DNA from: Patescibacteria group bacterium
GTDB lineage: Bacteria > Patescibacteriota > Gracilibacteria > UBA1369 > LOWO2-01-FULL-3
Length of the DNA: 43,213 bases
Direction of reading: 5' to 3'
Assembly (NCBI GenBank): GCA_018818755.1
Contig: JAHIRL010000148.1
Span: 1 to 43,213, forward strand
Under the pieces are notes generated by a model. That model searched no databases, was not told the origin of the DNA, and worked only from the letters and a program-made list of their open reading frames with translations. Both the position numbers and the translations under genes were made by a program. Positions 7,837 to 34,731 of this stretch are shown here, in pieces (position 1 is the first letter of the stretch; each line of letters starts with the position of its first letter).

Positions 7837-8508
7837 ATGGAACTTCCAACAATTATCGTTAATTTTAAAAACTATGAGCAAGCCACTGGTGATAAAGCTG
7901 TTGAGCTTGCAAAAATTCACGAGCGTGTGGCTCAGGAGAGTGGTGTTAGCATTGCTGTTGCGGTTACTGCTTTGGATTTGGGGAGGGTTTGTAGGGCTGT
8001 TTCGATTCCGGTTTTTGCCCAGCATATTGACACTGTTAGGTATGGAAGTGGTACGGGGAAGGTTTTGGCGGAGTTGGTGAAGGAGTATGGGGCCTATGGA
8101 ACTTTATTGAATCATGCTGAATGTGGGCTTGAGGATATGGTTTTGGAGGAAAGTATTGCGAGGGCCAAGGAGGCCGGTTTGTATGTGGTGGCTTGCGCGA
8201 ATACCGCTGAGAAAGCCGCTGAAATTGTGGAAATGAAGCCGGATCTTGTGGCGGTTGAGCCACCGGATTTGATTGGAGGGGATGTGTCTGTATCCAAGGC
8301 GGATCCGAAAATTATTGAGGAAAGTGTGAAATTGGTTGGCGAAAACAGGGTGCTTGTGGGAGCGGGTGTAAAAAATGCGGAGGATGTGAGGATTGCTCTT
8401 GAGCTTGGGGCTGTTGGAGTGCTTTTGGCTTCCGGCGTTACTAAAGCGGATGATCCGTATTCTGTTCTTTTGGATCTTTGTTCAGGGCTAGCGTTAAAAT
8501 CAGAATAA
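7837..8508 (+). CDS. tpiA: triosephosphate isomerase, archaeal-type short form (223 aa)
   Basis: NFKNY near the N-terminus, LLNHAE, VAVEPPDLIGG (archaeal EPPELIG-type catalytic-Glu motif rather than bacterial AYEPVWAIGTG), GAGV, LLASGV. Length is about 225 aa, not about 250. Confidence 0.9.
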   Translation: MELPTIIVNFKNYEQATGDKAVELAKIHERVAQESGVSIAVAVTALDLGRVCRAVSIPVFAQHIDTVRYGSGTGKVLAELVKEYGAYGTLLNHAECGLEDMVLEESIARAKEAGLYVVACANTAEKAAEIVEMKPDLVAVEPPDLIGGDVSVSKADPKIIEESVKLVGENRVLVGAGVKNAEDVRIALELGAVGVLLASGVTKADDPYSVLLDLCSGLALKSE

Positions 8509-9613
8509 ATAAAATCATTAGGTCATTTTTGAAGAGAGGGGTGTCTATTAGGCCGTGGATGAGGAAATAGAGGGCAATGAAAAGTGTTGTTGAAGGATGG
8601 CTGGTTTTTTTGATGCCCGTATAGATTAGGTAGAGTAGGAAAATTAGGCCGGGGAATCCAAATTGGAAGTAAAAAAGAAGAAAAATGTTGTGGGGTTGGA
8701 GAACGATTAAGTCGAGGGGGGGGCGATTGAGAATTTCTTGGGCGTTGGCGGCATAATGGCTTTGAAATTGTCCTAAACCAAGTCCTGTTACAAGGTTTTC
8801 TTTTAGTAGTTGAGTGGATACCTGCCAGATCTCTCCGCGTTCATCCAGGCTGGAATAGTTGGTTTGGATGGTTGGCAAGATTTTTGTATAAAAAATTAGT
8901 GCGGAGATGAGGATGGCTCCGGTTATGATCAGGTATTTTGGTGTTTTTGTTTTGAACCTTTGTTGAGTAAAAAAATAGATCGCTATTGTGGCGAAGGAGC
9001 CGCCAATTGCTCCCATGGAGCGAGTAAATGCAATTAGGATTGCCAATAATATTGCGTAGATGAGATATTGTTTTTTGTGATCTCTGGTACAGCGAAATAG
9101 GAAAAACAGCATGAATGGTGTGAGGTAGAAGGCTAGATATACTGCTGAATCTAGGGGACCAAGTAATCGAAAATCGTGAGTGATGTTGTAGCCCATCAGG
9201 TTGTATACGGCTGAAAATATTCCAAATACCAAAGCTCCTTTTCCCGCGATTTCGAAGGCTTTGATCTTTTCTTCTTTTGTGCGGAAAACTTCAAAAAACA
9301 TCAATACCAAAGCTATTGCGAAGAATAGAAATTTAAGGTGGCGGATTAAATCCAGATTGTTAATGATTTGATTTGTGGCAATTGTAAAAATACTTAAGCC
9401 TACAAAACCCCAAATTACCCAATATTTTTTCAATTCCCTAATGCTTTTCAAGAGTCGTCCTTCTTTTATTGTCCAGGCAAAACAAGATAATGCCGCTATG
9501 CCAATTAGTATTTCCTGTAAATTTGTTGGATATGAGCCCAGACTGAAGCGAATCAGATAGGACTGCAGAAAAAAGAAATTTATGTAGAGTAGGATTTGGG
9601 TGAGATTTTTCAT
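8441..9613 (-). CDS. O-antigen ligase/polymerase-like (Wzy_C-type) polytopic membrane protein
   Basis: 390 aa with about 10 or more hydrophobic segments. The AFTRSMGAIGG segment resembles the Wzy_C loop motif. Assignment rests on topology and a weak motif only. Confidence 0.55.
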   Translation of the reverse strand: MKNLTQILLYINFFFLQSYLIRFSLGSYPTNLQEILIGIAALSCFAWTIKEGRLLKSIRELKKYWVIWGFVGLSIFTIATNQIINNLDLIRHLKFLFFAIALVLMFFEVFRTKEEKIKAFEIAGKGALVFGIFSAVYNLMGYNITHDFRLLGPLDSAVYLAFYLTPFMLFFLFRCTRDHKKQYLIYAILLAILIAFTRSMGAIGGSFATIAIYFFTQQRFKTKTPKYLIITGAILISALIFYTKILPTIQTNYSSLDERGEIWQVSTQLLKENLVTGLGLGQFQSHYAANAQEILNRPPLDLIVLQPHNIFLLFYFQFGFPGLIFLLYLIYTGIKKTSHPSTTLFIALYFLIHGLIDTPLFKNDLMILFILILTLALNKDPKEQNTDHPL

Positions 9614-28929: not shown

Positions 28930-29520
28930 ATGAATATACAGGATAAAAATATGCTATTGCAAAGGTATGCTTTGGGGCGTGAAGCCGAGCTTATTGAAGC
29001 CTATATTTTGAATGGGCCGACAGCTTTGAAGGTGGCGGAAGGTTTTAGTCCGGAACAGTGGCAGGTTATCTTTGATTATTTGGTTTTTGAGCATAATCTT
29101 TTGTATAAAACTGTTTTGAATAGTGATGATTTTTTTATTGATGAGTATGTGAAAAGTGGAATGGCTCATGTGCGTGAGATTTTGGATGTTGTTGATAATA
29201 AATATAATTTAATTTGGGAGATTTGTAAGGATTATATAATGATTTCACAGGATGGCCTTTATGCTCATGTGTTTGAGCATAGAAATAGATATATGACGGC
29301 TTTTAAGGCTCGAGGTGGGGATTTTGTGAGGAAAGTTTTGGGTATTTGGGATTTGAAATATACCCAAAGTTGGGAAAGGGTGCTTGATATTCTTTTGAAT
29401 GCGGTTTGTGATGGTTTGTTCAGCGAAAGAACTTTTGATAATGGTTTGGAAACTTTCACCAGGATTTGGAGTGGAGTGCGTGAGCATCGGCCTATTTCCA
29501 AGTTTTTAAAGTCTATTTAG
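28930..29520 (+). CDS. hypothetical protein (196 aa, helical, W/F/Y-rich)
   Basis: ORF with its own promoter, divergent from the efflux operon. No motif recognised. Confidence 0.6.
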   Translation: MNIQDKNMLLQRYALGREAELIEAYILNGPTALKVAEGFSPEQWQVIFDYLVFEHNLLYKTVLNSDDFFIDEYVKSGMAHVREILDVVDNKYNLIWEICKDYIMISQDGLYAHVFEHRNRYMTAFKARGGDFVRKVLGIWDLKYTQSWERVLDILLNAVCDGLFSERTFDNGLETFTRIWSGVREHRPISKFLKSI

Positions 29521-30351
29521 GACTTCCAGTGTGCAGATCAGTTGAATTATGCCTTTCATCCCGCTATGCCATGTTGGAGATTTTTTTAGTAATTCGCTTT
29601 TGGGTATGAGAATTGCGGCTAGTGCTTCAATTTGTTTTTTTGAGACTGTTCCGGTGAGGGTGAGAGCTTTTCCTTCGAGCATGGCTCTTAGGGTTTTGTT
29701 TTGGAGGGATTTTTTGATTATTTGCAGGCTGTATTTTGGTCTTTTTTTGAATATCAGGCTAAGGCCAAGTTCCATTTCTTTAGTGTTGTCTGTATCACCG
29801 ATTTCGAAATATTTTAACAAAAGGTCGGCATATTGTTCCTGGGCGTGGATGTATCCGAAGGAGTCTGGTTTTCTTTGGCTTAGTATTTTGAGAACAGATT
29901 TTTTGTTTTTGTATCCGCGTTTGCTCATATCGCGATGGACTTTCCATTTTTTACGGACATCTTCGTCCGGCGAGATAAAGAGTTTCAGGTCGAAAAGCCT
30001 GCGCATCAATTTGCGATGATAGGGATGCAAGCCGGTTATGATTATCAGTTTTTTGGGAGAGACTGCGGCTGGTGGGGTGAAAAGTCCGGTGGAATGGTCG
30101 TAAATCACTTTTTTTATGGTTTTACCTTCTTTGAGATCTTTTAGGTGATCTTCGGCCAGGCGCAGATTGTTGGCTTTGGGATTTAGGTGGGTTAGAGTTT
30201 GTTTGCGCATCTCGTACCTATTCCATTTGTGATAGGCGTCCATGCTGATTGTGAGGAGATTTTTTTCGTCGAAAACATCCAGAAGAAGTCTTCCGATTGT
30301 TCCTTTCCCGCTGCCGCTATCGCCTCCAAGTCCGATTATGAAAGGGTGCAT
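29506..30351 (-). CDS. prk: phosphoribulokinase homologue (class II, plant/cyanobacterial/archaeal type; PRK/uridine kinase family)
   Basis: Co-linear with class II PRK: IIGLGGDSGSGKGT (P-loop with Asp), SMDAYH, LNPKANNLRL...LKEGKTIKKVIYDHSTGLF...KLIIITGLHP, KKWKVHRDMSKRGY, SQRKPDSFGYIHAQEQYADLLL. Confidence 0.8.
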   Translation of the reverse strand: MHPFIIGLGGDSGSGKGTIGRLLLDVFDEKNLLTISMDAYHKWNRYEMRKQTLTHLNPKANNLRLAEDHLKDLKEGKTIKKVIYDHSTGLFTPPAAVSPKKLIIITGLHPYHRKLMRRLFDLKLFISPDEDVRKKWKVHRDMSKRGYKNKKSVLKILSQRKPDSFGYIHAQEQYADLLLKYFEIGDTDNTKEMELGLSLIFKKRPKYSLQIIKKSLQNKTLRAMLEGKALTLTGTVSKKQIEALAAILIPKSELLKKSPTWHSGMKGIIQLICTLEVLNRL

Positions 30352-30352
30352 T

Positions 30353-30375
30353 ATCGTTTGTTATGTTCAAACGAT
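30353..30375 (-). promoter_or_regulatory. intercistronic RNA hairpin filling the spacer before the prk start
   Basis: Perfect 8-bp inverted repeat ATCGTTTG / CAAACGAT with a 7-nt loop. Minus-strand RNA reads UAA-A-[AUCGUUUG AACAUAA CAAACGAU]-A-AUG. Confidence 0.5.
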
Positions 30376-30376
30376 T

Positions 30377-30607
30377 TTATTGTAGCTGATTCATTACATC
30401 TTGTGAACGGGAGTTTGCGTCGTTGAGGATCTGAATGATGTCTACATGTCCTGTAGAAGATCTTTCTACAATGGCTTGTGTTGGAGAGTTTTTTAAATCC
30501 GGATTTGCTTCAAGTTCAACATCGCTGGGGATGTGGTAGAATTTGCCATCAAAAGGAACTCCGTTTCCTTCTGTTGTTTCTATTGCAGGGGTTTTAATTC
30601 TTTGCAT
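30377..30607 (-). CDS. small hypothetical protein (76 aa, acidic/polar, no Cys)
   Basis: ORF 7 nt after the receiver gene and 25 nt before prk. Minus-strand-type codon usage. Confidence 0.5.
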   Translation of the reverse strand: MQRIKTPAIETTEGNGVPFDGKFYHIPSDVELEANPDLKNSPTQAIVERSSTGHVDIIQILNDANSRSQDVMNQLQ

Positions 30608-30614
30608 GGTTTTT

Positions 30615-31031
30615 TTAAAAAATCCGTGCTTTTATTTTAACATCTTTGAACATAATGTCAACGACAGGTTGGGGATTTTCTTTAATTTTTTCTATAATTT
30701 GTTTCAGCCCGTCTAATCCGACTTCGTATATTCCTGCGCATTTTGCTCTTACATCATCTGCGACAGCGTTGATATTGGCGTTAAAGGTGATTACGGGTAT
30801 TTCATATTTGAATGCTATTCTCGCAACTTCGTTGCCATTAGCCTTAGGCATATTGATATCTGTGATTACCAGAGATATTTCGTTTGCGGTTTTTTCTATG
30901 ATTTCGATTGCTTTTTCTCCGTTTGATGCCTCGAGGAAATCAATGTCTTCCTTTATTGCTCTTTTTAAACGCATTACTGCCATTTTCCTCCATGAATTGT
31001 CGTCGTCCGCGTATAGTATTTTGGGGGGCAT
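30615..31031 (-). CDS. stand-alone response-regulator receiver (CheY-like) domain protein
   Basis: KILYADDDNS acidic pocket, VITDINMP phospho-acceptor Asp, IPVITFNAN. There is no output domain and no histidine kinase in the window. Confidence 0.8.
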   Translation of the reverse strand: MPPKILYADDDNSWRKMAVMRLKRAIKEDIDFLEASNGEKAIEIIEKTANEISLVITDINMPKANGNEVARIAFKYEIPVITFNANINAVADDVRAKCAGIYEVGLDGLKQIIEKIKENPQPVVDIMFKDVKIKARIF

Positions 31032-31109
31032 GTGTTTTAAGTTAAAGGTTGTTTAGTTTATAGTGTTTTTTTAGAAATGCAAAGATTAAAATGTATGAGC
31101 GTTTAGTGT

Positions 31110-31138
31110 TTGACAGGATGTTTGAAATGCTATTTAAT
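31110..31138 (+). promoter_or_regulatory. sigma70 promoter of the radical-SAM megaprotein gene: TTGACA-N17-TTTAAT
   Basis: TTGACA at 31110-31115, a 17-nt spacer, then TTTAAT at 31133-31138, about 25 nt upstream of the GTG 31163 / ATG 31166 start. Confidence 0.6.
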
Positions 31139-31162
31139 AACTCTCCGTATTTGTTAATTTAA

Positions 31163-34100
31163 GTGATGTCAAAAGAGGGATGTCCGCATAATTGCGAGGT
31201 GCCTGCTAATGTGGAAAAAGTGTCTGAGGTTGGGCGTGGTGGTAGTGATGAGTTGCGTATTATAAAATCTAGCAATTCTGAGCTTAATCTGGTTTTGGAT
31301 GGATTGAATTCGCCTTTTCCGCATGCTCTTTTGGAATTTTCTAAAACCCTTTATCGGGATGATGTTACTTTTGATGAAGTTCAAAGACAGTTTGAGAAAG
31401 AGAATTTTGAGCTGGATAAGAAAAAATACCCTTATTCATCGGTTATGCTTAATACTGTTTTTTTAGACCAAGAAGGTTGGTTGAAATTGGATTGTACCAT
31501 GATCCAATATCGTTATAAGGCTGGGGATATTGTTAAGTGTAAGAATGAACATAGTAAGCATTATGGCAAATATCTTTTTGTTGAGGGTTTTCTTTATCGA
31601 TCTTTGAGTTGTTCCACTTTGGTTTATTTTAGTGTTTTAGATTCATCGGGGAATGTAGAGAAGCAGTTGTGTGAAGGATGGAGCATAGGGGCTTTTGAGG
31701 AGGAGTGTGAATTGGTTCATAGGTGGGGAGAGTATGATCCTGAGGAGTTTGGGGTTGATATTTCAAAAAGAGATAATGTTTTCGCGATTGATACTGTTAA
31801 AGGTGAGAGAAGAAGTAGTGAGGATGGGATGATAAGGGTTACTAATTCGGAATTTGTAGAAAATTTTTTTGAAGCAAGGAATTTTAATAAAATTTCTGCT
31901 GAAGACGAGCCGTTTAAACTGGAAAATGTCTTTGATGAGTATGTTGAAATGCTGATGCGTGTGGAATTTAAGGATTTACTTCAACGCTTGAATCACATTT
32001 TTCCGCTTAAAAATTATGATCGGATAATTGAGAAAGTTGATTTATGTAAGACTTCTGTGGAAATTCAGGATTATAACCATGTTTTCTTTGCCGGACTGAA
32101 GGAGAATTTTAAGGATGATTATAGTGATGAGCAGTTGTCCAAGATCGCCGATTATCTGAGGGAACAGAGGGAACGGTTTGATTTGGAGAAATTACTGAGA
32201 GAGTCTTGCACCTATATGCGGACTTCTGCAGAGCATAAAATCGGTGGCAACCTGAGACATGTTGAAGTTCCCAGGGAAAATATCATTGAAAAGTTCCCGG
32301 ATTTTGTGAATGATTTGGTTTTAAATGTGGCTAAGTATCTGGTTCCTTTGTTTGGAAGGAATGAGGATTATTATATGAATCCGGATTTGTTTCGAAAAAG
32401 ATCGACATATTTTTCAAACTTGCTGGGTGATTATGCTAATCCGTTGGATGCGGCGCGGCATGTTGTGGGAGTTGGGTTTAATGGGGTTAGTGAGATGTTT
32501 GATAGGGCAATGAATCGTGAATTTAAGTATTTTGTAAATGGAAAACCGGCTTTTGAAAAACCGGAAGAGCAGGAAGCTTATTATGAATTGTTTTTTGCGG
32601 ACAAAAAGACTGAACTGAGGGCGCATGTTTCTGATGCAATGTCTTTGATAAGAGAGATTTTTGATGAGTTTGATGTTACTGCTCTTATTATGAAAGAGGT
32701 TTATGGAGAAAATGGCTTTGAAATTCGGAGTGATATGAGTTTTTCGGATGTGAATAATAAGTTGTCTACTATCAATAAAAACCTGGCACAGGCTTTTTCC
32801 GGCTTGAAGAAGAAGTTTTTTGATCGTGCGGGTAGTGTTTTTGATAAAATTGATCCGGAATTGAAAAATTCTTTTAGTGGGATTTTTGACGCTATGGTGG
32901 ATTCTTTCTTTGCTAATTGTGGAATTAATGATGAAATTATCAAAACTGTTCATGGTATTTTTGATCAGTTTCTTAAAAATTCGGGGATGGATGTTTGTGT
33001 TGTTGAGGAACCGAAAACTTATCCGATAAGAACTTTGGAGTTTGATGGCGAGTTGGTTGATTGTCAGAGTGAAAAAGGTGGTTTTAAGGGTGGAGACATT
33101 ATTAGTATTAATAATCGTGGTTCTATTAAAAAATATCTTGTTGAAGGTATTGGAGTGAAGAATGGCCGTGTGTACATCAGAGATCTTACTTTTGGTGTTA
33201 CAGCCAAGACTGTTGATTATTTTGAGCTGAAAGACTTTGAGAATGATGATCCGCGGTATAAGGTGGAATTACTTGCCCGATGGGGGAATTATGATCCTGC
33301 TGATTATTCATATGGTCTTTTGAATAGAGTTGAAAATTCCAAGCCGGTTTATGAAGGGGTGCTTGGAGGGTATGATTACACCTTTTTGATGGATGATTTT
33401 ATGGGAAAGTTATTGGGGCCATTAAGGAAAATGGAGGTAGAGTTTAACGATCATGACCATAGAATTGATAATAAATTCGGAGAATATATTTGTGAGCATA
33501 TTATCAGGGATATAAAGTATACCGAGGGTAAGGCTTTGCTTCCAACCAGGCTGTTGTATTTTGATAGAGATATTTATTCGGTGTATCCCGCTGCTCCGCC
33601 AAGTTCTTCCGGGTCTAATGTGATTCGATTTGAGATTTCGACGGGTTGTAGTCACGGAAAATGTTCATATTGTAATTTGTACGAAAATGAAGATTATTCT
33701 TTGAAAAACTTTGAGGATTTTGAGAAGCATTTTGATTTGATTTGGGAGTATTTGGGAGCAAGGGTGATGAAAAAACAGTTTAAAAGAGTATTTTTGAGTG
33801 GAGGTAACGGTTTATCTATGAAAACGGATGATCTGTGCAAGATTTTGAAGTATGCTCGTAAAAATTTGGGGGTTTTGAGGAGGATTGAATCATATGCGAA
33901 TACTTTGGCTATAAAAAAGCATGGAGAGGAAGGTTTGAAAAGGTTAAAAGAAAGTGGATTGAATATGGTTTATTGGGGAGTGGAAAGTTGTAATGATGGT
34001 GTTCTTAAATTGAGCAGGAAAGGATATAGGTCAAAATCTGTTTCGCAGGCCGGGAAAATGCTTAATGATGCCGGTATTGGGATGTCGATTACTGTTATGC

Positions 34101-34438
34101 CGGGATTGGGTGGAGAGAAATTTTCTGAGCGGCATGCTGAAGATACAGGAAAAATATTGGGAGAGTTGGCGCCTGAGTTTTTGACTTTGATGAGTGTACA
34201 TGCTCCGGGCAGTCTTTGGGAGCAGGACATGAATGATGATATGGATAATAGGGCTTTGAATGAGAACGAACTGAAGGAAGAAATTTTGCTTATGCGAAAA
34301 GTTTTTTTACAAACAGCCAAGAAAAATCCTAACGGTTTCAAAAGGAAGGTCAGTATTGCTGCTCATGGTCCGAATATAACTCCCGTTTCTAATAATCCAA
34401 CAAGTTTTCAAACCAGAATTGAATTGGAGAAAAAGTAG
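31163..34438 (+). CDS. 1091-aa protein: unknown ~800-aa N-terminal region plus a C-terminal radical-SAM domain
   Basis: GCSHGKCSYC (C829-x4-C834-x2-C837, nt 33647-33673), FLSGGNG (nt 33791-33811), GVESCND, VMPGLGGE. The N-terminal part has no recognisable motif but contains two copies of a ~95-aa module. The true start may be ATG 31166. Confidence 0.85.
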   Translation: MMSKEGCPHNCEVPANVEKVSEVGRGGSDELRIIKSSNSELNLVLDGLNSPFPHALLEFSKTLYRDDVTFDEVQRQFEKENFELDKKKYPYSSVMLNTVFLDQEGWLKLDCTMIQYRYKAGDIVKCKNEHSKHYGKYLFVEGFLYRSLSCSTLVYFSVLDSSGNVEKQLCEGWSIGAFEEECELVHRWGEYDPEEFGVDISKRDNVFAIDTVKGERRSSEDGMIRVTNSEFVENFFEARNFNKISAEDEPFKLENVFDEYVEMLMRVEFKDLLQRLNHIFPLKNYDRIIEKVDLCKTSVEIQDYNHVFFAGLKENFKDDYSDEQLSKIADYLREQRERFDLEKLLRESCTYMRTSAEHKIGGNLRHVEVPRENIIEKFPDFVNDLVLNVAKYLVPLFGRNEDYYMNPDLFRKRSTYFSNLLGDYANPLDAARHVVGVGFNGVSEMFDRAMNREFKYFVNGKPAFEKPEEQEAYYELFFADKKTELRAHVSDAMSLIREIFDEFDVTALIMKEVYGENGFEIRSDMSFSDVNNKLSTINKNLAQAFSGLKKKFFDRAGSVFDKIDPELKNSFSGIFDAMVDSFFANCGINDEIIKTVHGIFDQFLKNSGMDVCVVEEPKTYPIRTLEFDGELVDCQSEKGGFKGGDIISINNRGSIKKYLVEGIGVKNGRVYIRDLTFGVTAKTVDYFELKDFENDDPRYKVELLARWGNYDPADYSYGLLNRVENSKPVYEGVLGGYDYTFLMDDFMGKLLGPLRKMEVEFNDHDHRIDNKFGEYICEHIIRDIKYTEGKALLPTRLLYFDRDIYSVYPAAPPSSSGSNVIRFEISTGCSHGKCSYCNLYENEDYSLKNFEDFEKHFDLIWEYLGARVMKKQFKRVFLSGGNGLSMKTDDLCKILKYARKNLGVLRRIESYANTLAIKKHGEEGLKRLKESGLNMVYWGVESCNDGVLKLSRKGYRSKSVSQAGKMLNDAGIGMSITVMPGLGGEKFSERHAEDTGKILGELAPEFLTLMSVHAPGSLWEQDMNDDMDNRALNENELKEEILLMRKVFLQTAKKNPNGFKRKVSIAAHGPNITPVSNNPTSFQTRIELEKK

Positions 34439-34493
34439 TTTCTCGCAATTGCTGAAGTTTTTTTGGAAATGGAGTTCGCATTCGCTCACAGTT

Positions 34494-34550
34494 GCGCTTG
34501 TCCGAATTTCCCAAGGGGCAAGCGGCAAATTTTGCTTTGCAAAATTTGTG
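34494..34550 (-). repeat. structured repeat unit, copy L (3' of tRNA-Arg): GC stem plus AT-rich hairpin
   Basis: Stem CGCTTG (34495-34500) pairs with CAAGCG (34519-34524). Hairpin CAAATTTTGC-TTT-GCAAAATTTG lies at 34526-34548. Shares the AGCGGCAA core and terminal GTG with copy R. Confidence 0.55.
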
Positions 34551-34627
34551 TGGTACGCCCGACAGGATTCGAACCTGTAACCCCCGGTTCCGAAGACCGG
34601 TGCTCTATCCAGTTGAGCTACGGGCGC
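34551..34627 (-). tRNA. tRNA-Arg (anticodon UCG), CCA encoded
   Basis: Reverse complement folds as a cloverleaf: GCGCCCG TA GCTC AACTGGATA GAGC A CCGGT CTTCGGA ACCGG GGGTT ACAGG TTCGAAT CCTGT CGGGCGT A CCA. All stems pair (G1-U72 wobble), the T-loop is TTCGAAT, and anticodon positions 34-36 are TCG. Confidence 0.93.
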
Positions 34628-34666: not shown

Positions 34667-34672
34667 TCGCTT

Positions 34673-34729
34673 GCGCTCGCAGGATTTCCTATGTGCGAGC
34701 GGCAAGTTTTTTCTCCGCAAAAACTCGTG
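34673..34729 (-). repeat. structured repeat unit, copy R (5' of tRNA-Arg)
   Basis: Stem CGCTCGC (34674-34680) pairs with GCGAGCG (34695-34701). Hairpin AGTTTTT-TCTCCGC-AAAAACT lies at 34705-34725 and gains a G-U pair only in the minus-strand RNA. Shares the AGCGGCAA core and terminal GTG with copy L. Confidence 0.55.
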
Positions 34730-34731
34730 AA

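What the first reader, a model, noticed from the sequence alone, without database searches (positions are those of the whole stretch)
29506..31031. Operon of orphan receiver domain, 76-aa protein and class II phosphoribulokinase homologue, divergent from the radical-SAM gene
Three minus-strand genes are spaced 7 and 25 nt apart. They are a stand-alone CheY-like receiver with no kinase or output domain in the window, a 76-aa acidic Cys-free protein, and a 281-aa protein co-linear with plant/cyanobacterial/archaeal-type PRK (GDSGSGKGT, DAYH, LNPKAN...KEGK...IYDHSTGL...GLHP, KWKVHRDM..RG, RKPD...QYADLL). PRK is not expected housekeeping for a small-genome heterotroph. It implies ribulose-1,5-bisphosphate production for a RuBisCO encoded elsewhere, or a diverged sugar/nucleoside kinase activity. 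Direct coupling of PRK to a phospho-relay receiver and a tiny partner protein is not an arrangement I know. A functional link to the divergent radical-SAM gene is speculation.
Basis: partly seen in the sequence, partly recalled or inferred. Interest (0 to 1): 0.62.

Follow-up and report, generated by a model that had tools for sequence, protein, structure and literature searches.

The report
Peregrinibacteria PRK beside unrelated inserted genes
A small-genome groundwater bacterium carries a phosphoribulokinase that most likely feeds its RuBisCO, as already reported for this group; the signalling-type gene and mini-gene in front of it are a lineage-specific insertion, not a conserved regulatory operon.

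Summary
The three minus-strand ORFs exist exactly as described, with 7-nt and 25-nt gaps. The 281-aa protein is a full-length class II/archaeal-type PRK homologue. PRK-diagnostic residues are present, the AF2 model has TM 0.87 to solved PRKs, and it is separated from Udk with 100% support. It lies in a Peregrinibacteria clade already reported by Jaffe et al. 2019. The same 1.12-Mb genome encodes a form II/III RuBisCO, an adjacent AMP phosphorylase and R15P isomerase, and an RpiB/RPE/transketolase cluster. A Ru5P-to-RuBP-to-3-PGA route is therefore plausible.

The coupling to the receiver is not supported. Two relatives keep the backbone SecDF, tRNA-Arg, PRK, 196-aa gene. One has about 51 nt between the tRNA and PRK, and the other has unrelated cargo there. 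None of five other PRK contexts has a receiver, the 76-aa gene or the radical-SAM gene. Window 30364-34549 is therefore variable cargo at a tRNA-Arg hotspot.

The receiver is the only REC domain in the genome. No histidine kinase was found, and the conserved Thr and Lys are missing. The 76-aa ORF has no orthologue and only an ankyrin-like segment.

Verdict: an ordinary new member of a known kind, with a fortuitous neighbourhood.

The parts
29506..30351 (-). 281-aa phosphoribulokinase homologue of the Peregrinibacteria clade within the class II/archaeal PRK superfamily
   Evidence: Pfam PRK 9e-39. NCBIfam NF005655 scores 222.8 bits against 95 for udk. PDB 5B3F scores 164 bits and Udk 67. The AF2 model has pLDDT 94 and TMq 0.87 to 9QKP/9QKO. 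Tree placement is and the residue table. A 149-nt perfect metatranscriptome contig lies at 29725-29873.
30353..30375 (-). 8-bp perfect hairpin (AUCGUUUG-7 nt-CAAACGAU) that fills the spacer between the 76-aa stop and the PRK AUG
   Evidence: Sequence. Fold energy is -8.3 kcal/mol with z = -2.0. Homology to relative L002 begins inside it, at 30363.
30377..30607 (-). 76-aa acidic Cys-free ORF with no orthologue; residues about 30-70 resemble one ankyrin repeat
   Evidence: No homologue was found in 5.8e9 proteins. A full phmmer run against 1.84e9 representatives returned only multi-repeat proteins, and all 7 tested are ankyrin proteins. Shuffle control: 62.9 bits against a maximum of 14.4. The coding score is ambiguous. 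The AF2 single-sequence model has pLDDT 55, with helices at 42-51 and 57-75.
30615..31031 (-). 138-aa stand-alone atypical receiver (REC) domain, the only one in the genome
   Evidence: PF00072 38.6 bits. It is the sole PF00072 hit in the genome. D9/D10 and D58 are present, but the T87-equivalent is N84 and the K109-equivalent is G105. The word-index search found no close homologue.
30364..34549 (.). 4186-bp lineage-specific variable segment (cargo) between the 3' end of tRNA-Arg and PRK. It holds the rSAM gene, the receiver and the 76-aa ORF.
   Evidence: blastn against L002 shows homology stopping at 34550 (tRNA end) and resuming at 30363. L002 has an unrelated 3466 bp there. In relative P0003 the tRNA lies about 51 nt before the PRK start. 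GC is 0.374 against 0.413 for the genome.
31163..34438 (+). 1091-aa protein with a C-terminal radical-SAM domain, part of the cargo and divergent from the receiver
   Evidence: PF04055 3.2e-14 at residues 824-989. Full-length or partial homologues occur in only 2 of 205 genomes of the order, with other neighbours.
34551..34627 (-). tRNA-Arg(TCG), the conserved left border of the variable site
   Evidence: ARAGORN and Rfam 69.7 bits. It is 97% identical to the tRNA-Arg of L002.
28930..29520 (+). 196-aa protein of unknown function, convergent with PRK and overlapping its 3' end by 15 nt. It is the conserved neighbour of PRK in this sub-lineage.
   Evidence: Homologues lie next to PRK in L002 and L003 (phmmer 1e-54), and a 198-aa overlapping gene is in the same place on the P0003 contig. 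It has no Pfam, NCBIfam or PADLOC family.
30379..30407 (-). sigma-70-like promoter match (TTCACA-17-TACAAT, 10/12) just upstream of PRK, inside the end of the 76-aa ORF
   Evidence: Consensus scan only. A second match at 30634-30661 (11/12, with TG) lies before the 76-aa ORF.

Best explanation
The 281-aa gene encodes a soluble phosphoribulokinase of the Peregrinibacteria clade. It most likely phosphorylates ribulose-5-phosphate, which the genome's RpiB and RPE can make from pentose phosphates. The product, ribulose-1,5-bisphosphate, would be split by the form II/III RuBisCO into 3-phosphoglycerate for lower glycolysis and Pta-AckA fermentation. This route would run in parallel with the AMP phosphorylase/R15P isomerase route. 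That is the role already proposed for Peregrinibacteria PRK. The receiver, the 76-aa ORF and the giant radical-SAM gene are not ancestral partners of PRK. They are lineage-specific cargo in a variable site between the 3' end of tRNA-Arg and PRK. PRK transcription in this genome must now start inside, or read through, that cargo, so the operon-like spacing is a by-product of the insertion. Shown here: homology, fold, residues, the genome's gene inventory and non-conservation of the arrangement. Inferred: Ru5P kinase activity, the direction of flux, and independence of PRK from the receiver.
For: PRK identity:
- NF005655 scores 222.8 bits, against 95 for udk and 41 for class I PRK.
- The best PDB matches are M. 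hungatei PRK 5B3F at 164 bits and cyanobacterial PRKs at 141-150 bits, with Udk at 67 bits or less.
- The AF2 model has pLDDT 94. Its TMq is 0.84-0.87 to 9QKP/9QKO/9QKN, 0.71-0.75 to other PRKs and 0.55-0.58 to Udk.
- The tree separates all PRK-type rows from Udk-like rows with 100% support and puts the window protein in an 11-row Peregrinibacteria clade at 99%.
- Residues called strictly conserved or catalytic in PRKs (Gurrieri et al.) are present: R45, Y84, H86, R140, D141, R145.
- States that differ between PRK and Udk rows are all of PRK type: H41, R45, N61, H86, H109, K137, R160, D163, Q171.

Pathway:
- A RuBisCO fragment lies on C123 and is of form II/III type (335 bits to 8VGS/5MAC, 214 to form II).
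- AMP phosphorylase (532 bits) is adjacent to an IF-2B-type R15P isomerase, in one string with Pta and AckA.
- An NDK, TKT, PRPP synthetase, RpiB, RPE cluster is present.
- All 3 genomes with clade-type PRK have RuBisCO, against 13 of 61 relatives overall.
- Jaffe et al. 2019 report the same association.

Transcription: a perfect 149-nt metatranscriptome contig lies inside PRK.

Non-conservation:
- The P0003 contig reads SecDF, PRK, 198-aa gene, RND pair. The called N-terminus of its PRK is a translated tRNA.
- L002 reads SecDF, tRNA-Arg, 85-aa, 58-aa, 943-aa TPR+HD_5 protein, PRK, p196 homologue, PriA.
- DNA homology breaks exactly at the tRNA end and 12 nt before the PRK ATG.
- No receiver, 76-aa or rSAM homologue lies in 7 loci covering 4 other PRK contexts. 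The annotated P0003 contig gives a fifth.
- The receiver and the 76-aa protein have no orthologues.
Against: - The activity has not been assayed.
- The NF005655 score is 13 bits under its curated cut-off.
- The Walker-B Glu of classical PRK and Udk is Thr here and Met/Thr/Arg across the clade. The cbb-linked Dormiibacterota/Actinomycetota PRKs also lack it (Gln).
- The nearest sister clade consists of PRK-like proteins from genomes without RuBisCO, several of them fused to 7-8 TM segments. Substrate specificity in this part of the tree is therefore not secure.
- The RuBisCO gene is cut by a contig end and its N-terminal domain was not found in the assembly. The bin has 4.6% estimated contamination, although C123, C124 and C81 fit the bin's 4-mer profile.
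- The tight same-strand spacing (7 and 25 nt) and the fact that PRK's native upstream DNA was replaced mean co-transcription with the receiver remains possible. RNA coverage is too thin to test it.
Confidence: 0.7

Rival explanations
1. The three genes form a real, recently assembled regulatory unit. They are co-transcribed. The orphan receiver, phosphorylated by acetyl phosphate from the genome's Pta-AckA pair or acting without phosphorylation, and/or the acidic ankyrin-like 76-aa protein modulate the basic (pI 9.9) PRK, in the way CP12 does in phototrophs.
For: The genes share a strand with gaps of 7 and 25 nt. PRK's ancestral upstream DNA is gone, so its transcription must come from within the cargo. 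The genome makes acetyl phosphate through Pta and AckA, and the receiver keeps the acidic pair and D58. The 76-aa protein is acidic and carries a protein-interaction-type repeat. A hairpin abuts the PRK AUG.
Against: The arrangement occurs in no relative. The receiver lacks the conserved Thr and Lys. The 76-aa protein has no orthologue, an ambiguous coding score, no CP12 motif and no Cys. Promoter-like sites exist directly before the 76-aa ORF and before PRK. The only RNA contig lies on PRK.
Confidence: 0.1
2. The 281-aa protein is a PRK-fold kinase with a different substrate (another pentose or pentulose phosphate, a nucleoside or a cofactor precursor). Its co-occurrence with RuBisCO is coincidental.
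For: Its sister clade (99% support) comes from Lysobacter, Clostridium, Pseudobdellovibrionaceae, Obscuribacterales and CPR genomes that mostly lack RuBisCO: 0 of 6 non-cyanobacterial genomes, and 0 of 5 CPR genomes with the long form. Several of those proteins are fused to polytopic membrane domains. The score is below the curated NCBIfam cut-off and the Walker-B Glu is lost.
Against: All residues that bind the Ru5P phosphate or catalyse transfer in solved PRKs are kept. Three of 3 clade genomes have RuBisCO against a 21% background. The next outgroup clade sits within about 1-7 kb of form I RuBisCO genes. The full-length fold matches solved proteins deposited as PRK.
Confidence: 0.15
3. PRK and RuBisCO operate in a complete Calvin-Benson-Bassham-like cycle, making this CPR bacterium a facultative autotroph.
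For: PRK, RuBisCO, a transketolase N-terminal subunit and pyrimidine-binding fragment, RPE, RpiB and TIM are confirmed by Pfam; GAPDH rests on a motif candidate only. Jaffe et al. note one Peregrinibacteria genome that lacks only FBPase.
Against: No energy-conserving system that could supply autotrophy with reductant was looked for or seen. The AMP-pathway genes sit in a string with Pta and AckA, which points to fermentation. The genome is 1.1 Mb. FBPase/SBPase and FBA were not tested here.
Confidence: 0.05

Closest known systems
PRK homologues of Peregrinibacteria (and Gottesmanbacteria) described by Jaffe et al. 2019, Mol Biol Evol (PMC6389311)
   Same: Same phylum-level group and the same association with form II/III RuBisCO and the deoA/e2b2 genes. 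The protein clusters with a sequence that NCBI names 'phosphoribulokinase [Candidatus Peregrinibacteria bacterium]' (P0005, 51% identity). The same proposed role applies: extra RuBP from pentose phosphates.
   Different: It is a new sequence, at most 61% identical to any protein in the 5.8e9 collection. It sits in a different genomic context, and that paper describes no receiver or small-ORF neighbourhood.
Archaeal PRK of Methanospirillum hungatei (PDB 5B3F; Kono et al. 2017, reductive hexulose-phosphate pathway)
   Same: It is the best sequence match among solved structures (164 bits over residues 4-191). It shares the P-loop, the D-x-x-H...R motif, the Y-x-H motif and the K..RD...R motif, and has no regulatory Cys pair.
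   Different: Identity is about 30%. TMq is 0.74, against 0.87 for the 9QK* proteins. The Walker-B Glu is replaced by Thr, and the protein is shorter (281 against about 320 aa).
'Cyanobacteria-specific PRK' of Hyella disjuncta PCC 6712 and Gloeocapsa PCC 73106 (PDB 9QKO, 9QKP, 9QKN, released 2026)
   Same: It is the best structural match over the full length, C-terminal domain included (TMq 0.84-0.87, 28-31% identity).
   Different: No paper on these entries is in the searchable library, so their substrate and role are unknown to me. They are second PRK-like genes of phototrophs, whereas this is the only PRK of a CPR heterotroph.
CP12 (small acidic regulator of PRK and GAPDH in phototrophs)
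   Same: About 76-80 aa, acidic, and largely predicted as disordered or helical.
   Different: It has no Cys pairs, no AWD_VEEL-type core and no detectable homology. It resembles an ankyrin repeat instead. PRK here also lacks the Cys residues used in CP12/thioredoxin control (S14 in place of Cys).
Single-domain CheY-like response regulators
   Same: REC fold match above the Pfam cut-off, with the acidic pair and phospho-acceptor Asp present and no output domain.
   Different: The conserved Thr/Ser is Asn and the conserved Lys is Gly. No histidine kinase or CheA exists in the genome, and no close relative was found by the word-index homology search.

Membership tests
Phosphoribulokinase, class II/archaeal type (PF00485; EC 2.7.1.19) | P-loop NTPase of the PRK/Udk family, with profile scores favouring PRK over Udk | tested here: met
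   PF00485 9e-39. The PRK subfamily model NF005655 scores 222.8 bits against 95 for udk TIGR00235. PDB PRKs score 124-164 bits against 67 or less for Udk.
Phosphoribulokinase, class II/archaeal type (PF00485; EC 2.7.1.19) | Score above the curated NCBIfam cut-off for PRK (NF005655, 236 bits) | tested here: not met
   222.8 bits, 13 bits short. The best stretch matched covers residues 3-259 and profile positions 8-276 of 326, so the last ~50 profile positions are unmatched.
Phosphoribulokinase, class II/archaeal type (PF00485; EC 2.7.1.19) | Ru5P-phosphate binding and catalytic residues (CrPRK R64, Y103, H105, R159, D160, R164) | tested here: met
   R45, Y84, H86, R140, D141 and R145 are present and invariant across all PRK clades in the alignment.
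Phosphoribulokinase, class II/archaeal type (PF00485; EC 2.7.1.19) | Phylogenetic placement inside PRK and outside uridine kinases | tested here: met
   The split between PRK-type and Udk-like rows has 100% SH-aLRT support. The window protein lies in the Peregrinibacteria clade at 99% (quick IQ-TREE, 100 rows).
Phosphoribulokinase, class II/archaeal type (PF00485; EC 2.7.1.19) | Full PRK fold including the C-terminal sheet domain | tested here: met
   AF2 pLDDT 94 and pTM 0.90. Foldseek TMq is 0.87 to 9QKP/9QKO, 0.74 to 5B3F and 0.55-0.58 to Udk, where only the N-terminal domain aligns.
Phosphoribulokinase, class II/archaeal type (PF00485; EC 2.7.1.19) | Walker-B acidic residue (E of xxEGLH) | tested here: not met
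   T106 here and M/T/R across the clade. The residue is Q or E in the RuBisCO-linked Dormiibacterota/Actinomycetota clade, so it is not strictly required in PRK-context genes.
Phosphoribulokinase, class II/archaeal type (PF00485; EC 2.7.1.19) | ATP-dependent phosphorylation of Ru5P to RuBP | not testable with these tools
   Needs an enzyme assay.
RuBisCO-dependent pentose-bisphosphate (AMP) pathway of CPR and archaea | Form II/III or III RuBisCO, AMP phosphorylase and R15P isomerase in the same genome | tested here: met
   RuBisCO C-terminal 256 aa on C123, of form II/III type. AMP phosphorylase scores 532.4 bits (cut-off 535), directly next to an IF-2B-family isomerase at 199.9 bits. The RuBisCO is truncated by a contig end.
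Two-component response regulator receiver (PF00072) | REC domain match above the gathering threshold, with the acidic pair and phospho-acceptor Asp | tested here: met
   38.6 bits against a 30.2 cut-off. D9/D10 and D58 align with CheY D12/D13 and D57.
Two-component response regulator receiver (PF00072) | Conserved Thr/Ser (CheY T87) and Lys (K109) switch residues | tested here: not met
   N84 and G105 occupy the aligned positions. The Pfam match ends at profile position 92 of 111.
Two-component response regulator receiver (PF00072) | Cognate histidine kinase in the genome | tested here: not met
   The only HATPase_c hits are GyrB, MutL and an RsbW-like protein. The genome is 91% complete, so absence is probable but not proven.
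Conserved operon (receiver, 76-aa gene, PRK) | Same strand with short intergenic gaps | tested here: met
   Gaps of 7 and 25 nt.
Conserved operon (receiver, 76-aa gene, PRK) | Gene order recurs in relatives | tested here: not met
   Absent from the P0002, P0003, P0005/G049, G159 and L124 contexts. The segment is variable cargo.
Conserved operon (receiver, 76-aa gene, PRK) | Co-transcription | tested here: inconclusive
   One metatranscriptome contig lies inside PRK and none spans the junctions. Coverage of the organism is sparse.
CP12 | Cys pair(s) and the conserved AWD_VEEL-type core | tested here: not met
   The protein has no Cys and the motif is absent (sequence). No family hit was found.

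The most novel reading that the evidence does not exclude
The insertion rewired PRK. It would now be expressed from a transcript that starts at the sole, kinase-less receiver gene. That receiver would sense acetyl phosphate from the Pta-AckA fermentation branch. The receiver, or the acidic ankyrin-like 76-aa protein, would gate PRK and so couple RuBP synthesis to fermentative carbon flux. This would be a non-redox analogue of CP12 control in a CPR bacterium.
Probability: 0.05. Interest if true: 0.6.

Novelty: new member of a known kind. Interest (0 to 1): 0.27.

Why it matters
The result adds one more, fairly divergent Peregrinibacteria PRK (at most 61% identity to anything known). It comes with a genome inventory that fits the published idea that some CPR bacteria feed RuBisCO from pentose phosphates as well as from nucleotides: RpiB, RPE, transketolase, AMP phosphorylase, R15P isomerase, form II/III RuBisCO, and Pta-AckA.

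It also gives two cautions for anyone annotating such genes. First, the clade's nearest relatives are PRK-like proteins in RuBisCO-less organisms, so the activity should be assayed before a CBB-like role is claimed. Second, tight gene spacing in these small genomes can arise from cargo insertion next to a tRNA gene and does not by itself indicate a functional operon.

Tried and rejected
- **CP12-like identity of the 76-aa protein.** Rejected: no Cys, no core motif and no family hit.
- **Mobile island with att sites.** No direct repeat of the tRNA 3' end lies at the other border, and the segment holds no integrase. The mechanism of insertion stays unknown.
- **Defence system.** PADLOC gives no hits for any of the five proteins.
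- **Receiver as a conserved partner of the giant rSAM gene.** Rejected: the G044 and G146 homologues have other neighbours.
- **Conserved 5' hairpin before PRK.** The window hairpin is moderately better than shuffles (z = -2.0). Relatives L002, G049 and G159 show nothing above shuffles.
- **Riboswitch or known RNA in the region.** Only the tRNA was found.
- **Co-transcription from public RNA.** Three metatranscriptomes give one contig inside PRK only.
- **Loss of the Walker-B Glu as evidence of inactivity.** Rejected: cbb-linked PRKs also lack it.
- **Literature on the 9QK* 'cyanobacteria-specific PRK' entries.** Nothing is in the searchable library.
- **Coding-potential test of the 76-aa ORF.** Inconclusive: 7.6th percentile of real coding pieces, but above 86% of spurious ORFs.
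Full report
**Observation.** The gaps are 25 and 7 nt. A 1091-aa ORF starts divergently at 31163. Pfam assigns PRK/Udk (9e-39) to the first, nothing to the second even at E <= 10, Response_reg (38.6 bits, cut-off 30.2) to the third, and Radical_SAM to residues 824-989 of the large protein. The quoted motifs, the acidity of the 76-aa protein (pI 4.67) and its lack of Cys are confirmed.

**Organism and genome.** The window is contig C78 of a 1.12-Mb, 165-contig assembly, 91% complete with 4.6% contamination. The nearest PRK relatives carry the name Candidatus Peregrinibacteria. The rest of the window is housekeeping: TIM, MurC-like ligase, TruB, DnaG, RpoD, GreA, PriA, SecDF, iPGM and an RND pair.

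**What the 281-aa protein is.**
- Profile scores favour PRK over uridine kinase. NF005655 scores 222.8 bits, 13 bits under its cut-off. udk scores 95 and class I PRK 41.
- Among solved structures the best sequence matches are the archaeal PRK of M. hungatei (5B3F, 164 bits), a 'cyanobacteria-specific PRK' (9QKO, 150 bits) and classical cyanobacterial and plant PRKs (124-147 bits). Udk scores 67 bits or less and class I PRK 28.
- An AF2 model built on 18 sequences is confident (pLDDT 94, pTM 0.90). It superposes over its full length on 9QKP/9QKO/9QKN (TMq 0.84-0.87) and on other PRKs (0.71-0.75). Udk covers only the N-terminal domain (0.55-0.58).
- In a 100-row tree, all PRK-type rows separate from Udk-like rows with 100% support, and the window protein lies in an 11-row Peregrinibacteria clade at 99%.
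- The residues that Gurrieri et al. describe as binding the Ru5P phosphate or catalysing transfer are present here as R45, Y84, H86, R140, D141 and R145. Ten positions that differ between PRK and Udk rows all have the PRK state.
- Two departures stand out. The Walker-B Glu is Thr here and Met/Thr/Arg in the clade, but it is also Gln in the RuBisCO-linked Dormiibacterota/Actinomycetota clade. The regulatory Cys of phototroph PRKs is Ser.

**Is there a RuBisCO to feed?** Yes.
- Contig C123 ends inside a RuBisCO large-subunit gene (251 bits). Its 256 C-terminal residues match form II/III enzymes best: 8VGS and 5MAC at 333-335 bits, form II at 214 and form III at 137. The N-terminal half is missing from the assembly.
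- C124 carries AMP phosphorylase (532 bits, cut-off 535) directly next to an IF-2B-type R15P isomerase. They lie in one string with phosphotransacetylase, acetate kinase and a deaminase.
- C81 carries NDK, a split transketolase, PRPP synthetase, RpiB and RPE, so Ru5P can be made.
- These contigs fit the bin's tetranucleotide profile.
- RuBisCO is in 13 of 61 relatives overall. It is in all three genomes with the clade-type PRK: G000, G049 and G159, the last two from one family.
- This is the association Jaffe et al. 2019 published for Peregrinibacteria, with the same proposed role of extra RuBP from pentose phosphates.
- One 149-nt metatranscriptome contig matches the PRK interior perfectly. 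It comes from a run in which only about six short pieces of this 40-kb region are seen.

**A caveat on function.** The sister group of the Peregrinibacteria clade (99% support) is a set of PRK-like proteins from Lysobacter, Clostridium, Pseudobdellovibrionaceae, Obscuribacterales, an alphaproteobacterium and CPR genomes. None of the six non-cyanobacterial genomes in it has RuBisCO. Five CPR genomes with the long (~700-aa) PRK-like form also have none. Two of the CPR members examined, one of which is placed in that clade by the tree, are about 700-aa proteins with 7-8 hydrophobic segments in front of the kinase domain. The next clade out (Dormiibacterota, a myxobacterium, Dactylosporangium) lies within about 1-7 kb of form I RuBisCO genes, judged from coinciding coordinates. 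Ru5P specificity is therefore probable but not secure.

**The neighbourhood.**
- The closest relatives share a backbone. On the 736-kb contig encoding P0003 (58% identity) the order is iPGM, NTP-transferase, a 137-aa gene, SecDF, PRK, an overlapping convergent 198-aa gene, RND adaptor and RND pump.
- The called N-terminus of P0003 (VAQLDRASVFGTEGYRFESCRAYH...) is a translated tRNA, like the frame over the window's tRNA-Arg. This places that tRNA about 51 nt before the PRK start.
- L002 (P0002, 61% identity) has SecDF, then tRNA-Arg(TCG), then 85-aa and 58-aa ORFs and a 943-aa TPR+HD_5 protein, then PRK, the 196-aa homologue, PriA, a class-I tRNA synthetase and CTP synthase.
- blastn between L002 and the window finds SecDF (70%), the tRNA (97%), PRK from 12 nt before its ATG, and the 196-aa gene. 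It finds nothing between window 30364 and 34549.
- The more distant clade members (G049 type, G159, L124) have still other neighbours.
- A phmmer screen of seven loci found no receiver, 76-aa or rSAM homologue.
- The 4186-bp segment holding the rSAM gene, the receiver and the 76-aa ORF is therefore variable cargo at a site bounded by the tRNA-Arg 3' end and PRK.
- It has slightly low GC (0.374 against 0.413) but an ordinary 4-mer profile. It has no integrase and no att-like repeat.

**The cargo genes.**
- The rSAM protein has true homologues in 2 of 205 genomes of the order, with unrelated neighbours.
- The receiver is the only REC domain in the genome. The only HATPase_c proteins are GyrB, MutL and an RsbW-like kinase beside a STAS protein.
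- The receiver keeps D9/D10 and D58 but has Asn and Gly at the positions of the conserved Thr and Lys. The word-index search found no close homologue.
- The 76-aa ORF has no orthologue in 5.8e9 proteins.
- An exhaustive phmmer search finds only long repeat proteins that match residues about 30-70 several times each. All seven tested are ankyrin-repeat proteins. The signal is not compositional: 62.9 bits against at most 14.4 for 200 shuffles.
- Its codon-usage score is ambiguous, and a single-sequence AF2 model is weak, with two helices at 42-51 and 57-75. It is either a small ankyrin-like protein or a remnant of a larger one.

**Expression signals.** Because PRK's native upstream DNA is replaced, its promoter must lie in the cargo. 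Consensus scans give sigma-70-like matches at 30661-30634 (11/12) before the 76-aa ORF and at 30407-30379 (10/12) before PRK. The genome encodes RpoD. A perfect 8-bp hairpin fills the 25-nt spacer (z = -2.0), and relatives show nothing comparable. Read-through from the receiver is possible but untested.

**Verdict.** It is best explained as an accident of cargo insertion next to a tRNA gene. I rate it a new member of a known kind, with low-to-moderate interest.

**What remains worth an experiment.** Three things are open: the substrate of this PRK clade, given its RuBisCO-less sister group; whether the kinase-less, atypical, sole receiver does anything; and what creates the variable site.

Noticed in passing
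window 30364-34549; L002 2242-5707: The site between the tRNA-Arg(TCG) 3' end and PRK holds different cargo in each of three related lineages: the rSAM gene, receiver and 76-aa ORF here; 85-aa and 58-aa ORFs plus a 943-aa TPR+HD_5 protein in L002; and only about 51 nt in the P0003 contig. No integrase and no att repeat were seen.
   Followed up: partly
window 28930-29520 (+): A 196-aa protein with no known family is convergent with PRK and overlaps its 3' end by 15 nt. It is kept next to PRK in L002 and L003 (E 1e-54), and the P0003 contig has an overlapping 198-aa gene in the same place. It is the only conserved PRK neighbour in this sub-lineage.
   Followed up: partly
L009 (G008:C33), L117 (G453:C159); also G383, G236: CPR genomes without RuBisCO encode proteins of about 670-730 aa in which 7-8 hydrophobic segments precede a C-terminal PRK-like kinase domain. 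The one included in the tree (L009, G008) falls in the clade sister to the soluble Peregrinibacteria PRKs. Their function is unknown.
   Followed up: partly
G000 contig C124 (L033 6429-11869): One co-directional string holds phosphotransacetylase, a 157-aa ORF, acetate kinase, AMP phosphorylase, R15P isomerase and a cytidine/dCMP deaminase. Nucleotide salvage through RuBisCO is thus linked by gene position to acetate fermentation.
   Followed up: partly
G000 contig C81 (L127 495-4319): A cluster holds NDK, a transketolase N-terminal subunit, a short 150-aa transketolase pyrimidine-binding fragment, PRPP synthetase, RpiB and RPE. The second transketolase piece looks truncated, and another transketolase C-terminal fragment sits at the start of C147.
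   Followed up: no
window 34490-34552 and 34669-34731: Two imperfect copies of a hairpin-rich unit of about 60 nt flank the tRNA-Arg. About 36 of 65 aligned columns are identical. The 3' copy lies inside the variable segment and is absent from L002.
   Followed up: partly
G349 and G532 (same class): PRK-like and RuBisCO reading frames in these genomes contain 5-11 and 2-4 in-frame TGA codons. This fits lineages of the class that read TGA as a sense codon.
   Followed up: no
window 7936-8651: In the one metatranscriptome that holds this organism, the triosephosphate isomerase region is the best-covered part of the window. The contigs are perfect matches with word depth up to 10.6.
   Followed up: no
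G000 contig C98 (L016 1366-2705): An RsbW-like HATPase_c_2 protein is followed by a STAS protein with a long Pro/Gln/Glu-rich repeat tail (PEQPAQPEP...). It is the only kinase-like signalling pair seen in the genome.
   Followed up: no
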